Origin: Chlamydiia bacterium | Lineage (GTDB): Bacteria; Chlamydiota; Chlamydiia; Chlamydiales; Rhabdochlamydiaceae | Length of the DNA: 64,000 bases | Assembly: GCA_963804085.1 (NCBI GenBank) | Contig: CAWDOQ010000017.1 | Location: 128,001 to 192,000, forward strand | Direction: 5' to 3' | Shown here: positions 27,786 to 51,858 of the stretch, piece after piece | How the letters are laid out: the number at the start of each line of letters is the position of its first letter | Position numbering within the stretch: position 1 is the first letter of the stretch | Program-made: the position numbers and the translations under genes | Notes under the pieces: model-generated | Databases searched by the model: none | Seen by the model: the letters and a program-made list of their open reading frames with translations, nothing else | Told to the model about the DNA's origin: nothing

Positions 27786-27813
27786 TTCGCGCCCGATTCC
27801 GCGCCCGCGTGCG
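27786..27813. repeat. Family B (GTGCCC/GGGCAC hexamer) element, left arm; right arm at 29812-29840
   Basis: gcccgcgtgcg left of the IS is the reverse complement of cgcacgcgggc right of the IS. Confidence 0.7.
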
Positions 27814-27866
27814 GTATGCGTCAAATGAGGCCATATTGAATAAAAATTTAATTCAGATATGACTGA

Positions 27867-29369
27867 TCAGTTATTGGGTATGTTCTTGATCCAGTTATGA
27901 GGCAAAAGCTCTTCCAGCTTTTGCGCATTGTGGTCCATGAGACGACGCATTATGTCTTCGAGATACACGCGAGGATTTATATGCAATGCCCGGCAGGTCT
28001 GCACCAGAGATAAAATGACCCCTGCTGCTTCCCCACCATCATTACTTCCTAGAAAGAGCCAGTTCTTACGACCCAATACAAGCGGTCTCACGGCTCGCTC
28101 TGCGACATTATTGTCCAACCGGGCCCAAGGGTGAAGGGTGTAATTTTTTAAGTATGAGATCAAGCTGCAGTAGTACCCTAATGCTTCTTTAAAATTGGAT
28201 TTAGGCAATACTGTTCCTGATAGCAGCCGAGTTTTGATTAGTTCTGTGAGTTCATCAATAATGGGAACTTCAAGTTCTTGTCTTATTTGTAGTCGCTCTT
28301 CAGGCGACTTTGTCCATGCGATTTCTTCTATTTGAAAAAGTTTTTGTATCTTATGCAACACTGTGTCGCGAAGGTCTTTATCGCCATGCTCGGCTTCTAT
28401 AAATTTTCTGCGAATATGGACCCAACATGGACACCAAGTAAATTGCTTTGTTGCAGCCAGCTTTTCATAGGCTCCATATTTGTCAGAGTGCACTACACCA
28501 CGATAACCCTTCAAAAGCTCTGCAGCTTGATGGTGTTGTCTATTAGTTCTAAAGTTATAAACTCTGCAAGAGGGATTGCTTTCTTTGCCTCCACTTAGGA
28601 CCCACATGTAAGTGATTTTGGTTTGTCCCATCCCAGGATCGAGCATTTTGATGGGCACTTCATCGATGAAGACATTTTCACTGCTCAGTATCAGGCGAGT
28701 CATCTCATCGCATAAGGATTTTAACGCAATGCCACATTTTATAACCCATTGGGACAACAATTGGCGGCTGATAAAAATCCCATCTCTAGACATGATTTCT
28801 GAGATGCGATTAAGAGGATTGTGGTCTGCATATTTCTTAACTAAAAGCTCAGCTAAAAAACTATCATCTACTTGACAGCGTGATAAAAGAGAAGATGGAA
28901 GATCGGCTATCTTGATTCCCTCTTCGCTTCTTTGAGGATGAGCATATTTGGGTCGGACGATTTCTTTGATAAAATAAGAGCCAGGCTTATGGGCTAATTT
29001 ACGAGACACTTCCTCTCCGATCTTAACAAGAGGTGTCCCTGTCTCTTGGCACTTCTTTTGCTCTTCTGGTAGGTCGATGACAGTGCGTTCCACGGGCAAG
29101 TCAGGAGGAAGGGTGATTTTATCTTGACCGTTACGACATTGCTTTACACGTTCATGGCTTTTGATAACTTGCTTTTCTGGAATGGATTTTTCTAAAGCAA
29201 ATCCATTAAAACTCAGTTGAGATTCATCGAGATTACGAAGATCTTTTTCCGAGCGCCTGCCAAAAATCTGACGACGCAACCATTCCAGTTGCTCTTTAAG
29301 AGCATCGACTGTCTCGCGTAGTTTTTGATTTTCCGTTTTCAGATCCGATAATTCTTCTAAGGCGTTCAT
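27867..29369 (-). CDS. tnpC: IS66 DDE transposase TnpC
   Basis: LRRQIFGRRSEK, KYADHNPL, IDEVP, HSDKYGAY, CWVHIRRKF, DNNVAERAVRP..GRKNWLF. Confidence 0.95.
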   Translation of the reverse strand: MNALEELSDLKTENQKLRETVDALKEQLEWLRRQIFGRRSEKDLRNLDESQLSFNGFALEKSIPEKQVIKSHERVKQCRNGQDKITLPPDLPVERTVIDLPEEQKKCQETGTPLVKIGEEVSRKLAHKPGSYFIKEIVRPKYAHPQRSEEGIKIADLPSSLLSRCQVDDSFLAELLVKKYADHNPLNRISEIMSRDGIFISRQLLSQWVIKCGIALKSLCDEMTRLILSSENVFIDEVPIKMLDPGMGQTKITYMWVLSGGKESNPSCRVYNFRTNRQHHQAAELLKGYRGVVHSDKYGAYEKLAATKQFTWCPCWVHIRRKFIEAEHGDKDLRDTVLHKIQKLFQIEEIAWTKSPEERLQIRQELEVPIIDELTELIKTRLLSGTVLPKSNFKEALGYYCSLISYLKNYTLHPWARLDNNVAERAVRPLVLGRKNWLFLGSNDGGEAAGVILSLVQTCRALHINPRVYLEDIMRRLMDHNAQKLEELLPHNWIKNIPNN

Positions 29370-29403
29370 GATCAGAACGTTAGCATAATTTCCGCATTAA
29401 ATC

Positions 29404-29736
29404 CTACATTTTTTTAATTTTTTTTGTGCGCAAATGCTCTGGGAAATTGCCATGCAAAATCATTTCGAGATCGGAACAAGAAATCGTCGAGGTCGTAAAG
29501 CATTTAGGTGCGAAAACACCTTTTCTTGATCGGACAAACCAGTAAGACAAATTATGCGATGTCCAATGGAGTATCTTTACACGATTACGCTTGCGGTTCA
29601 GAAAAATAAAATATGCTTCGGGTGGAATCTCATTGACTAGAGAAGTAGAAATGGCACCCAGGCCCTCGAAGCCTTTTCTTAGGTCTACAGGAATACCGCA
29701 GAGATAGATGAAAGCATGTTCAGGGATAGCGAGCAT
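29404..29736 (-). CDS. tnpB: IS66 accessory protein TnpB (Orf2)
   Basis: IYLCGIPVDLRKGFEGL, FIFLNRKRNRVKILHW. Confidence 0.9.
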   Translation of the reverse strand: MLAIPEHAFIYLCGIPVDLRKGFEGLGAISTSLVNEIPPEAYFIFLNRKRNRVKILHWTSHNLSYWFVRSRKGVFAPKCFTTSTISCSDLEMILHGNFPEHLRTKKIKKM

Positions 29737-29844
29737 ATGACTCCTTGAATAAAAGGAATCATCTTACAAAAGCCGGCTACTTGAAAAAATATGGCCTCAT
29801 TTGACGCTTACCGCACGCGGGCACGGGCACAGGCACGAAGGGGA

Positions 29845-49783: not shown

Positions 49784-49834
49784 TAACGTGCACGTGCCCG
49801 AAATTAATCCGGATCGGGCACGGGCACGCACGCG
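49784..49834. repeat. Family B element interrupted by IS66 copy 2 (continues at 51841-51856)
   Basis: aacgtgcacgtgcccgaaattaatccggatcgggcacgggcacgcacgcg, then the IS, the TSD and ggcacgggcacgtata. Confidence 0.85.
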
Positions 49835-49909
49835 GTAAGCGTCAAATGAGGCCATATTTTTTCAAGTAGCCGGCTTTTGTAAGATGATTCCTTTTATTCA
49901 AGGAGTCAT

Positions 49910-50242
49910 ATGCTCGCTATCCCTGAACATGCTTTCATCTATCTCTGCGGTATTCCTGTAGACCTAAGAAAAGGCTTCGAGGGCCTGGGTGCCATTTCTA
50001 CTTCTCTAGTCAATGAGATTCCACCCGAAGCATATTTTATTTTTCTGAACCGCAAGCGTAATCGTGTAAAGATACTCCATTGGACATCGCATAATTTGTC
50101 TTACTGGTTTGTCCGATCAAGAAAAGGTGTTTTCGCACCTAAATGCTTTACGACCTCGACGATTTCTTGTTCCGATCTCGAAATGATTTTGCATGGCAAT
50201 TTCCCAGAGCATTTGCGCACAAAAAAAATTAAAAAAATGTAG
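49910..50242 (+). CDS. tnpB: IS66 accessory protein TnpB (Orf2)
   Basis: Same protein as 29404-29736. Confidence 0.9.
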   Translation: MLAIPEHAFIYLCGIPVDLRKGFEGLGAISTSLVNEIPPEAYFIFLNRKRNRVKILHWTSHNLSYWFVRSRKGVFAPKCFTTSTISCSDLEMILHGNFPEHLRTKKIKKM

Positions 50243-50276
50243 GATTTAATGCGGAAATTATGCTAACGTTCTGATC

Positions 50277-51779
50277 ATGAACGCCTTAGAAGAATTATCG
50301 GATCTGAAAACGGAAAATCAAAAACTACGCGAGACAGTCGATGCTCTTAAAGAGCAACTGGAATGGTTGCGTCGTCAGATTTTTGGCAGGCGCTCGGAAA
50401 AAGATCTTCGTAATCTCGATGAATCTCAACTGAGTTTTAATGGATTTGCTTTAGAAAAATCCATTCCAGAAAAGCAAGTTATCAAAAGCCATGAACGTGT
50501 AAAGCAATGTCGTAACGGTCAAGATAAAATCACCCTTCCTCCTGACTTGCCCGTGGAACGCACTGTCATCGACCTACCAGAAGAGCAAAAGAAGTGCCAA
50601 GAGACAGGGACACCTCTTGTTAAGATCGGAGAGGAAGTGTCTCGTAAATTAGCCCATAAGCCTGGCTCTTATTTTATCAAAGAAATCGTCCGACCCAAAT
50701 ATGCTCATCCTCAAAGAAGCGAAGAGGGAATCAAGATAGCCGATCTTCCATCTTCTCTTTTATCACGCTGTCAAGTAGATGATAGTTTTTTAGCTGAGCT
50801 TTTAGTTAAGAAATATGCAGACCACAATCCTCTTAATCGCATCTCAGAAATCATGTCTAGAGATGGGATTTTTATCAGCCGCCAATTGTTGTCCCAATGG
50901 GTTATAAAATGTGGCATTGCGTTAAAATCCTTATGCGATGAGATGACTCGCCTGATACTGAGCAGTGAAAATGTCTTCATCGATGAAGTGCCCATCAAAA
51001 TGCTCGATCCTGGGATGGGACAAACCAAAATCACTTACATGTGGGTCCTAAGTGGAGGCAAAGAAAGCAATCCCTCTTGCAGAGTTTATAACTTTAGAAC
51101 TAATAGACAACACCATCAAGCTGCAGAGCTTTTGAAGGGTTATCGTGGTGTAGTGCACTCTGACAAATATGGAGCCTATGAAAAGCTGGCTGCAACAAAG
51201 CAATTTACTTGGTGTCCATGTTGGGTCCATATTCGCAGAAAATTTATAGAAGCCGAGCATGGCGATAAAGACCTTCGCGACACAGTGTTGCATAAGATAC
51301 AAAAACTTTTTCAAATAGAAGAAATCGCATGGACAAAGTCGCCTGAAGAGCGACTACAAATAAGACAAGAACTTGAAGTTCCCATTATTGATGAACTCAC
51401 AGAACTAATCAAAACTCGGCTGCTATCAGGAACAGTATTGCCTAAATCCAATTTTAAAGAAGCATTAGGGTACTACTGCAGCTTGATCTCATACTTAAAA
51501 AATTACACCCTTCACCCTTGGGCCCGGTTGGACAATAATGTCGCAGAGCGAGCCGTGAGACCGCTTGTATTGGGTCGTAAGAACTGGCTCTTTCTAGGAA
51601 GTAATGATGGTGGGGAAGCAGCAGGGGTCATTTTATCTCTGGTGCAGACCTGCCGGGCATTGCATATAAATCCTCGCGTGTATCTCGAAGACATAATGCG
51701 TCGTCTCATGGACCACAATGCGCAAAAGCTGGAAGAGCTTTTGCCTCATAACTGGATCAAGAACATACCCAATAACTGA
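50277..51779 (+). CDS. tnpC: IS66 DDE transposase TnpC
   Basis: Same protein as 27867-29369. Confidence 0.95.
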   Translation: MNALEELSDLKTENQKLRETVDALKEQLEWLRRQIFGRRSEKDLRNLDESQLSFNGFALEKSIPEKQVIKSHERVKQCRNGQDKITLPPDLPVERTVIDLPEEQKKCQETGTPLVKIGEEVSRKLAHKPGSYFIKEIVRPKYAHPQRSEEGIKIADLPSSLLSRCQVDDSFLAELLVKKYADHNPLNRISEIMSRDGIFISRQLLSQWVIKCGIALKSLCDEMTRLILSSENVFIDEVPIKMLDPGMGQTKITYMWVLSGGKESNPSCRVYNFRTNRQHHQAAELLKGYRGVVHSDKYGAYEKLAATKQFTWCPCWVHIRRKFIEAEHGDKDLRDTVLHKIQKLFQIEEIAWTKSPEERLQIRQELEVPIIDELTELIKTRLLSGTVLPKSNFKEALGYYCSLISYLKNYTLHPWARLDNNVAERAVRPLVLGRKNWLFLGSNDGGEAAGVILSLVQTCRALHINPRVYLEDIMRRLMDHNAQKLEELLPHNWIKNIPNN

Positions 51780-51858
51780 TCAGTCATATCTGAATTAAAT
51801 TTTTATTCAATATGGCCTCATTTGACGCATACCGCACGCGGGCACGGGCACGTATAGT

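What the first reader, a model, noticed from the sequence alone, without database searches (positions are those of the whole stretch)
27786..51856. Both IS66 copies sit at the same octamer (CGCACGCG) inside family B palindromic repeats
Seen: copy 2 has a perfect 8-bp TSD CGCACGCG inside a GGGCAC-arm element. Copy 1 is also bordered by this octamer, with CGCGTGCG on the left and CGCACGCG on the right. The three uninterrupted family B elements (46411, 48395, 56442) lack the octamer. Known: IS66 makes 8-bp TSDs and is not generally regarded as strongly sequence-specific; REP-targeting is documented for members of other IS families such as IS110 and IS3. Inference: this IS66 targets a dispersed intergenic repeat as a safe harbour.
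Basis: partly seen in the sequence, partly recalled or inferred. Interest (0 to 1): 0.72.

Follow-up and report, generated by a model that had tools for sequence, protein, structure and literature searches.

The report
IS66 element homes to repeat octamer
A small jumping gene of the IS66 family in an uncultured environmental chlamydia has landed at least three separate times next to the same eight-letter word, a word that is built into the stems of a hairpin repeat scattered about a hundred times between this genome's genes.

Summary
Two 100% identical 1998-bp IS66-family copies (tnpB + tnpC, no tnpA) lie at window 27814-29811 (-) and 49835-51832 (+), and all four junctions abut CGCACGCG or its complement. 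Copy 2 is a simple insertion with a perfect 8-bp duplication. Copy 1 has inverted octamers, no direct duplication, and sits where the centre of a palindrome should be.

Genome-wide the octamer is a native part of the repeat: 47 of 144 octamer sites lie in repeat arms, and 24 of 99 loop-bearing elements carry it.

A contig from a related strain in a public run joins the same IS end to the same octamer in a third palindrome, which is uninterrupted in this genome. Synteny with three relatives rules out an inversion between the copies. IS66 relatives at 57-65% transposase identity in other Chlamydiota give unrelated duplications, so this site choice is not shared by them.

Site-specific insertion is well supported, though from only three sites. 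It stays open whether the transposase reads the octamer alone or the palindrome: 85 of the 97 other octamer sites lie in long open frames, where insertions would be purged. The abnormal junction of copy 1 was not bridged by independent data. This is a new member of a known phenomenon, of moderate interest.

The parts
27788..27813 (.). Left (outer) arm of a palindromic repeat, CGCGCC type, ending in the octamer CGCGTGCG (27806-27813). It abuts the IRR end of IS copy 1.
   Evidence: the arm type recurs genome-wide. Junction J1 is bridged by a 372-nt contig of run X1 with 0 differences (record 3).
27814..29811 (-). IS66-family element, copy 1, 1998 bp, with 23-nt terminal inverted repeats (GTAAGCG... 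and GTATGCG..., 22 of 23 alike).
27867..29369 (-). tnpC of copy 1: 500-aa DDE transposase of the IS66 family.
   Evidence: Pfam was run on the identical copy 2: DDE_Tnp_IS66 1e-80, plus the LZ, zf and C-terminal IS66 domains.
29404..29736 (-). tnpB of copy 1: 110 aa, IS66 Orf2-like.
   Evidence: Pfam TnpB_IS66 5.9e-14 on the identical copy 2.
29812..29837 (.). Right (outer) arm of a palindromic repeat, GGGCAC type, beginning with the octamer CGCACGCG (29812-29819). It abuts the IRL end of copy 1. This is the abnormal junction J2: an outer arm stands where the loop side is expected.
   Evidence: No laid contig bridges this junction.
49786..49834 (.). Host palindrome of copy 2: short left arm, loop AAATTAATCCGGAT, the inner part of the right arm, and the left copy of the duplication CGCACGCG (49827-49834).
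   Evidence: A contig of run X2 reads IRL end, then CGCGTGCG-TGCCCGTGCCCG-ATCCGGATTAATT, which fits this junction but also two other loci.
49835..51832 (+). IS66-family element, copy 2, 1998 bp, 100% identical to copy 1.
49910..50242 (+). tnpB of copy 2 (110 aa). Only 75 bp lie between IRL and its start, and no tnpA frame is present.
50277..51779 (+). tnpC of copy 2 (500 aa).
51833..51853 (.). Right copy of the duplication CGCACGCG (51833-51840), followed by the outer right arm GGCACGGGCACGT.
46420..46510 (.). Uninterrupted palindrome of the GTGCCC/GGGCAC hexamer type, without the octamer.
48398..48453 (.). Uninterrupted palindrome with a degenerate right arm, without the octamer.
56445..56540 (.). 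Uninterrupted palindrome with a variant long loop, without the octamer.

Best explanation
A short IS66-family element (tnpB + tnpC, no tnpA) transposes in this chlamydial lineage with a strong preference for the 8-bp target CGCACGCG, which it duplicates. In all observed cases the target is followed by GGC(A/G)CGG. In this genome that word is a stem module of a subclass of a roughly 100-copy, intergenic, REP-like hairpin family with a conserved loop ATCCGGATTAATT and arms built of GTGCCC-type hexamers or CGCGCC units. Surviving insertions therefore end up inside these palindromes, always with the IRR end facing the outer arm. Copy 2 is a primary insertion. Copy 1 began the same way in a left arm and then lost about 33 bp, from its IRL end to the mirror-image octamer in the right arm. 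That loss could come from intramolecular transposition or adjacent deletion into the partner octamer, from a small deletion, or from recombination with another IS copy. Shown here: the junction sequences, the native status of the octamer, a third site whose empty form is present in this genome, the absence of an inversion, and the lack of this preference in relatives. Inferred: that the transposase itself selects the site, and how copy 1 was remodelled.
For: Junctions: all four read IS end then octamer.

Third site: an X2 contig of 166 nt at depth 2.7 joins 50 nt of the IRR end to an arm ending in CGCGTGCG, preceded by 90 nt of other flank (only 30 letters of it are shown). Those 30 letters match G000 C15:93239-93268 with 3 substitutions. 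At that locus the G000 element is intact and carries the octamer once.

Native octamer: 47 of 144 sites lie in repeat arms, and 24 of 99 loop-bearing elements carry it.

Orientation: in 3 of 3 sites IRR abuts CGCACGCG-GGC(A/G)CGG read outward.

Chance: 6.8e-5 per insertion genome-wide, or 2.2e-4 within DNA outside long frames.

No inversion: the order and strands from SecDF through RecJ to the radical-SAM gene are the same in G009, G015 and G004 as in G000.

Relatives: the duplications are AGATCAAT, CTTTCAAC and GGAAAGAC in G270, CGAATGTG, ATATGCGC and GTGTACG in G141, and GAATGAGC in G385. None lies in a hexamer palindrome.

The elements are intergenic: 26 of 99 loops lie in long frames, against 87.6% of the genome.
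Against: Only three sites are known, and one rests on a single low-depth Logan contig from a related but not identical strain. For that site only the IRR junction was seen.

Junction J2 of copy 1 was not bridged by any laid contig. J2 and J4 are identical over 42 nt apart from one base, so an assembly mis-join at J2 cannot be excluded.

Arms with the commoner variant CGCATGCG (69 arms) and with CGCACACG (22 arms) are not used. This points to sequence reading, but the chance figure is only 0.34 cubed, about 0.04.

The two other elements with the same IR tip, in G036 and in two metagenome contigs, lie at unrelated flanks.

Recognition beyond the octamer is untested.
Confidence: 0.65

Rival explanations
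1. True REP targeting. The transposase, possibly with TnpB, recognises the palindrome itself, either its extruded hairpin or cruciform or an extended repeat motif. The octamer is then only the point of strand transfer. Copy 1, with inverted octamers and a lost centre, would be the direct product of integration into a stem formed by intrastrand pairing.
For: All sites lie in the repeat family. The shared context extends past the octamer to GGC(A/G)CGG. The elements fold as strong DNA hairpins, from -26 to -54 kcal/mol, with the octamer in the stem. Orientation relative to the arm is constant in 3 of 3 sites. An inverted octamer pair is what pairing of the left-arm and right-arm octamers would offer as a duplex target.
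Against: The expected share of repeat-borne sites among tolerable octamer sites is already about 47 of 59, so the repeat context adds little statistically. The arms flanking the three sites are of different types (CGCGCC and GGGCAC) and the distance from the loop differs (6 or 7 nt at the C15 site, 12 nt at copy 2). The commoner CGCATGCG arms, with the same structure, are unused. Worked through on paper, stem integration does not by itself give an intact chromosome. The only example is the one unverified junction.
Confidence: 0.2
2. No target choice by the transposase. One original insertion in a repeat was copied to other repeat copies by homologous recombination or gene conversion through the flanking repeat arms.
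For: The copies are 100% identical. J2 and J4 share 19 nt of flank after the IS end.
Against: Beyond the octamer, the IRR-side flanks of the three sites agree for only 3 more bases before the first mismatch (GGCA.. against GGCG..). That is far below what RecA-type exchange needs. On the IRL side, copy 2 and copy 1 differ completely. The empty C15 site has the octamer once, as a duplication by transposition predicts.
Confidence: 0.05
3. Assembly artefact. The shared flanks, or at least the odd structure of copy 1, come from mis-joining or collapse in a metagenome-assembled genome rich in near-identical repeats.
For: G000 is a 24-contig assembly with 4.97% estimated contamination. No laid contig bridges J2. 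The only X2 contig running out of the IRL end continues into the loop-side flank of the copy-2 type. J2 and J4 differ by one base over 42 nt.
Against: J1 is bridged without a difference by an independent contig of 372 nt (record 3). The IRL-loop junction and a third IRR-octamer junction are seen in X2. Unique genes flank both copies in the order found in three relatives. An artefact at J2 would make copy 1 a normal insertion at the same octamer, which strengthens the main claim rather than weakening it.
Confidence: 0.1

Closest known systems
IS1397 and ISKpn1 (IS3 family), which insert into REP/BIME palindromes of enterobacteria
   Same: A DDE-type IS whose copies sit at a fixed place inside a dispersed intergenic palindrome. 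Passages of PMC1525189 state there is experimental evidence suggesting that the transposases themselves appear responsible for the target specificity.
   Different: Different IS family. From recall, not from a call, those elements insert in the loop with a 3-4 bp duplication. Here the site is an 8-bp word in the stem, 6-12 nt from the loop, and nothing has been tested experimentally.
IS621, ISPpu9, ISPpu10 and other IS110-family elements inserted in REPs
   Same: All or most copies lie in REP sequences. ISPpu10 is 7 of 7 in the table of PMC1525189, and ISPpu9 has seven copies inserted in REPs according to the abstract listing.
   Different: These use DEDD recombinases guided by a bridge or seeker RNA (abstracts in the listing). 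According to the discussion of PMC1525189 most lack terminal inverted repeats; that they also make no such duplication is recalled, not from a call. The present element has 23-nt inverted repeats, an 8-bp duplication and a DDE_Tnp_IS66 transposase.
ISRm22 (IS4), ISRm5 (IS256) and ISNm1106 (IS5): REP-associated IS elements listed by Tobes and Pareja 2006
   Same: Genomic association of IS copies with REPs. That paper concludes REP targeting spans five IS families (passages).
   Different: IS66 is not among the five families, and the term IS66 occurs 0 times in that paper.
Canonical IS66-family elements (tnpA-tnpB-tnpC, 8-bp duplications), including the chlamydial relatives in G270, G141 and G385
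   Same: TnpB_IS66 and DDE_Tnp_IS66 proteins, inverted repeats that begin GTAAGCG, and an 8-bp duplication.
   Different: The element is shorter (1998 bp against 2.3-2.9 kb) and has no tnpA frame. The relatives' duplications are unrelated to each other and to CGCACGCG.

Membership tests
IS66 family of insertion sequences | Transposase TnpC with the DDE_Tnp_IS66 catalytic domain and the IS66 N-terminal and C-terminal modules | tested here: met
   PF03050 at 1e-80, with PF13817, PF13007 and PF13005 also matched (PF13005, zf-IS66, scored 23.6 bits, under its 27.3-bit cut-off)
IS66 family of insertion sequences | TnpB (IS66 Orf2-like) gene upstream of tnpC | tested here: met
   PF05717 at 5.9e-14 for the 110-aa frame at 49910-50242
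IS66 family of insertion sequences | TnpA gene as the first of three frames in the canonical members | tested here: not met
   Only 75 bp separate IRL from tnpB, and no further frame of 40 aa or more lies on the coding strand. The G270 relative has a 117-aa HTH_Tnp_1-like frame there, at 21.3 bits, which is below the cut-off. From recall, subgroups without tnpA/tnpB are accepted within the family, so this does not exclude membership.
IS66 family of insertion sequences | Terminal inverted repeats and an 8-bp target duplication | tested here: met
   The inverted repeats are 23 nt and match at 22 of 23 positions. A perfect 8-bp duplication flanks copy 2. Copy 1 has inverted octamers instead.
REP-targeting insertion sequences (a behaviour, not a lineage) | All or most copies inserted at one fixed position of a dispersed palindromic repeat | tested here: met
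   2 of 2 copies in G000, plus 1 junction in run X2, all at the octamer in a stem. n = 3 sites.
REP-targeting insertion sequences (a behaviour, not a lineage) | An empty site shows that the target word pre-exists once in the repeat | tested here: met
   G000 C15:93262-93350 is the uninterrupted counterpart of the X2 insertion and carries CGCGTGCG once.
REP-targeting insertion sequences (a behaviour, not a lineage) | The preference is exerted by the transposase, not by selection on survivors | not testable with these tools
   This needs a transposition assay. 85 of the 97 non-repeat octamer sites lie in long frames, so survivorship is confounded with target choice.
REP/REPIN elements (status of the target repeat) | Short, GC-rich, hairpin-forming, intergenic, and present in tens to hundreds of copies | tested here: met
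   99 loop-bearing elements were found, 26 of 99 in long frames against 87.6% of the genome. DNA folds range from -26 to -54 kcal/mol.
REP/REPIN elements (status of the target repeat) | A single-copy RAYT (Y1 transposase) flanked by the same repeat | tested here: not met
   One PF01797 gene lies at G000:C17:57827-58168, but it is flanked by a different inverted repeat of about 60 nt. Only a partial hexamer element lies downstream.

The most novel reading that the evidence does not exclude
This tnpA-less IS66 element is a genuine structure-guided REP-homing transposon. It integrates into the stem of the extruded palindrome. Copy 1, with inverted rather than direct octamers and the hairpin tip lost, would be the footprint of integration into an intrastrand duplex, an outcome I did not find described for a DDE insertion sequence.
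Probability: 0.1. Interest if true: 0.75.

Novelty: new member of a known kind. Interest (0 to 1): 0.42.

Why it matters
Insertion sequences that home to REP-like palindromes avoid killing their host and can persist. Known cases fall in the IS3, IS110, IS4, IS256 and IS5 families (PMC1525189, passages read). My searches turned up no report for the IS66 family, which is usually treated as having little site preference.

A natural IS66 member with a defined 8-bp target, alongside close relatives without one, would give a compact pair for mapping which part of TnpC or TnpB reads the target.

It also bears on how environmental chlamydiae, which carry many IS elements, tolerate them. The case is limited by three sites, an uncultured host and no experiment.

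Tried and rejected
Inversion between the two inverted IS copies, whether by homologous recombination or by replicative inversion, was tested as the cause of copy 1's missing duplication. On paper, any such exchange requires the second and fourth flank octamers to be reverse complements, but they are identical. Synteny with G009, G015 and G004 also shows the 20-kb segment in the ancestral orientation. Rejected.

A composite transposon was considered and rejected: the outer flanks CGCGTGCG and CGCACGCG are not a direct repeat.

The octamer as part of the IS ends was rejected. The empty C15 site carries it natively, and with the octamers counted as IS sequence, no duplication flanks either copy.

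More copies were looked for and not found:
- G000 has no further copies or solo ends.
- A DNA search of 40 relatives, all of other genera, gave only weak partial matches of 73% identity or less, plus one 29-nt IRL match in G036.
- The 21-nt IR pattern found 2 metagenome contigs holding one and the same site, and 1 genome contig (the G036 one). All have unrelated flanks.

No laid contig skipped the IS at copy 1, so no empty site was seen for it (table 5: no joints). The X1 loose end at 27813 proved to be a paralogous element at C19:298845.

No contig covered 29882-30417 or bridged J2. This is a gap in the data, not a finding.

The RAYT test of the repeat family came out negative, because the gene is flanked by a different repeat.

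Earlier findings of this scan: nothing on this genome.

My crude end-finder gave no duplication for 5 further relatives' loci (L050, L056, L057, L058, L052) and no ends at all for 5 others. I did not pursue these loci.
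Full report
WHAT IS THERE. The window is G000:C17:128001-192000 of a 2.13-Mb, 24-contig assembly. A fused 1501-aa SecDF, a Legionella_OMP-domain protein and the kin returned by the genome searches point to an environmental member of the Chlamydiota.

Two copies of one insertion sequence lie in inverted orientation 20 kb apart: 27814-29811 (-) and 49835-51832 (+). They are 100% identical over 1998 bp and are the only copies in the assembly. A pattern search with up to 3 mismatches finds only their four ends.

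Each copy encodes a 110-aa TnpB_IS66 protein and a 500-aa transposase with DDE_Tnp_IS66 and the three accessory IS66 domains. There is no room and no frame for tnpA. A relative in G270 has a weak HTH frame, tnpB and tnpC. The 23-nt terminal repeats begin GTAAGCG (IRL) and GTATGCG (IRR) and match at 22 of 23 positions.

THE OBSERVATION. Copy 2 is flanked by CGCACGCG at 49827-49834 and at 51833-51840, a perfect 8-bp direct duplication. Copy 1 has CGCGTGCG at 27806-27813 and CGCACGCG at 29812-29819. These are reverse complements, so copy 1 has no direct duplication.

Read outward from the IS ends, the four junctions are:
- J1 (IRR, copy 1): CGCACGCG-GGCGCGGAATCGGGCGCG
- J4 (IRR, copy 2): CGCACGCG-GGCACGGGCACGT
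- J2 (IRL, copy 1): CGCACGCG-GGCACGGGCACAGGCACG
- J3 (IRL, copy 2): CGCGTGCG-TGCCCGTGCCCG-loop-CGGGCACGTGCACGT

A normal insertion in an arm gives one outer-arm junction and one loop-side junction. Copy 2 does so. Copy 1 has two outer-arm junctions, which means the IS stands where the centre of a palindrome should be.

THE TARGET REPEAT. The genome holds a large family of hairpin elements with a conserved loop, ATCCGGATTAATT.
- The 21-nt loop core occurs 59 times with at most 1 mismatch in G000, and 0 times in 40 relatives of other genera.
- Counted separately, there are 128 hexamer arrays of three or more units.
- The elements fold as strong DNA hairpins, from -26 to -54 kcal/mol.
- They avoid long open frames: 26 of 99 loops lie in one, against 87.6% of the genome.

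The octamer is a regular stem module. The commonest form is CGCATGCG (69 arms). CGCACGCG occurs in 47 arms and CGCACACG in 22. 24 of the 99 elements carry CGCGTGCG or CGCACGCG. The octamer has 144 sites in the genome, against about 50 expected from base composition: 47 in repeat context and 97 elsewhere, 85 of the latter inside long frames.

A THIRD, INDEPENDENT SITE. Logan contigs of four public runs from one study were laid on 26800-30800.
- A 372-nt contig of X1 bridges J1 without a difference.
- A 166-nt contig of X2 (depth 2.7) carries 50 nt of the IRR end, an arm ending in CGCGTGCG, and 90 nt of a different flank, of which 30 letters are shown. Those 30 letters match G000 C15:93239-93268 with 3 substitutions. 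At that locus G000 has an intact palindrome with CGCGTGCG once in its left arm.
- So a related strain carries the IS at the same octamer of another element, and G000 supplies the empty site.
- Another X2 contig runs from the IRL end into CGCGTGCG-TGCCCGTGCCCG-ATCCGGATTAATT. That fits J3 but also two other G000 loci.
- No contig bridged J2 and none skipped the IS.

In 3 of 3 sites IRR faces the outer arm.

CHANCE. A random insertion hits an octamer in register with probability 144/2,133,167 = 6.8e-5. Two further insertions repeating the first give 4.6e-9. Restricted to DNA outside long frames, the figures are 2.2e-4 and 5.0e-8. The three sites have different unique flanks and different arm types, so they are separate events.

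REARRANGEMENT TESTS. Exchange between the inverted copies cannot explain copy 1, because it requires the second and fourth flank octamers to be reverse complements and they are identical.

Independently, the gene order runs SecDF, RecJ, Tsp-type protease, further genes, then the radical-SAM gene, and then the two genes at window 14448-17569. This order and its strands are the same in G009, G015 and G004. The 20-kb segment is therefore in its ancestral orientation, and copy 2 is a primary insertion.

Copy 1 needs a second step that removed the IRL-side octamer copy, the inner arm, the loop and the inner arm of the other side, about 33 bp. Three routes fit:
- Intramolecular transposition with deletion into the mirror octamer of the right arm, which leaves exactly X-octamer-IS-octamer'-X'.
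- A small deletion.
- Recombination between two direct IS copies in different palindromes.

I cannot choose between them. Integration into an extruded stem would also give inverted octamers, but worked through on paper it does not by itself restore an intact chromosome. J2 also remains unverified by independent data, and it differs from J4 by one base over 42 nt.

IS THE PREFERENCE A FAMILY TRAIT? In 401 Chlamydiota genomes, 42 (including G000) have a TnpC match at E of 1e-60 or better. The best non-self identities are 57-65%.

Ends and flanks were read for full-length copies in three genomes:
- G270: AGATCAAT, CTTTCAAC and GGAAAGAC. All 3 complete copies have perfect 8-bp duplications.
- G141: CGAATGTG, ATATGCGC and GTGTACG (7 of 8 positions), from 3 of 6 copies. 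The other three have a different left end.
- G385: GAATGAGC.

None resembles CGCACGCG and none lies in a hexamer palindrome. Two elements that share the IR tip, in G036 and at one site seen in two metagenome contigs, also have unrelated flanks. The site choice is therefore particular to this element, or to this element in this genome.

WHAT IS RECOGNISED. All sites share CGCACGCG followed by GGC(A/G)CGG, a context found only in the repeats. The structurally equivalent and commoner CGCATGCG arms are unused. That favours sequence reading, but the chance figure is only about 0.04.

Among sites where an insertion would be tolerated, roughly 47 of 59 are repeat-borne. The repeat context of all three sites is therefore expected even if only the octamer is read. 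'Safe harbour' describes the outcome; it is not shown to be the thing recognised.

LITERATURE.
- Tobes and Pareja 2006 (PMC1525189; passages and tables read) list REP targeting in the IS3, IS110, IS4, IS256 and IS5 families. The term IS66 does not occur in that paper.
- Searches combining IS66 with REP, palindrome, target specificity, target site duplication or insertion site listed no paper whose title or abstract start reports REP targeting by an IS66 member. Only one of the listed papers was opened (PMC3390384), and it merely lists IS66 among common families.
- A search for palindromic repeats in Chlamydiae listed nothing relevant.
- Subscription-journal reviews of IS66 are outside the library.

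VERDICT. Three corrections apply. The octamer belongs to the repeat. Copy 1 is a remodelled insertion, not a simple one. Octamer reading plus purifying selection explains the data as well as repeat recognition does. This is a new member of the known class of REP-associated insertion sequences, apparently the first of the IS66 family in the literature I could search. It rests on three sites in an uncultured lineage.

Noticed in passing
window 24962-26350 (inside the frame 24936-27767, + strand): There are twelve or more tandem 99-nt units (33-aa repeats, 60-84% identical to the reference unit) in the N-terminal half of a 943-aa protein. Its C-terminus matches Legionella_OMP (PF05150, 3.5e-36).
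   Followed up: no
window 48333-51858: In G009, G004 and G015, recJ follows secDF directly, with gaps of about 22, 35 and 169 bp. In G000 an MFS transporter gene (48536-49768), two palindromes and IS copy 2 lie between them. This looks like a lineage-specific insertion bounded by the repeats.
   Followed up: partly
window 17570-29845: About 12 kb lie between the gene at 15800-17569 and the radical-SAM gene, including the repeat-bearing OMP gene and IS copy 1. This stretch has no counterpart in G004, where the two genes abut. The gap is 2.2 kb in G015 and 6 kb in G009, so this is a variable spot.
   Followed up: no
G000:C17:57700-58420 (outside the window; locus L022): The assembly's only PF01797 (Y1 transposase, RAYT-like) match found (5.6e-27, 167-aa frame) is flanked by a different, roughly 60-nt inverted repeat. 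A partial hexamer palindrome and a tRNA-like stretch lie downstream. This may be a second REP system in the genome.
   Followed up: partly
G000 genome-wide, e.g. C2:14973-15095, C19:152845, C7:6798-7201, C19:343641-344043: Some palindromes have enlarged centres. In some, the loop is followed by a conserved CCGAATGT..GCAAACGCGAGG segment and a purine-rich (GAAA)n run before the right arm. In others, 300-500 bp separate the left and right hexamer arrays. The arms seem able to bracket cargo, as in a MITE or nested insertions.
   Followed up: no
G000 against 40 relatives: The 21-nt loop core of the palindrome family occurs 59 times in G000 and was not found in any of 40 relatives of other genera in the family and order. 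The repeat family appears to be a recent, lineage-restricted expansion.
   Followed up: partly
L040 (G141) and L055 (G385): Two different IS66 relatives in different genomes have duplications within a similar local context: CTCGAATGTG and CTCGAATGAGC. This may be coincidence or a weak preference.
   Followed up: no
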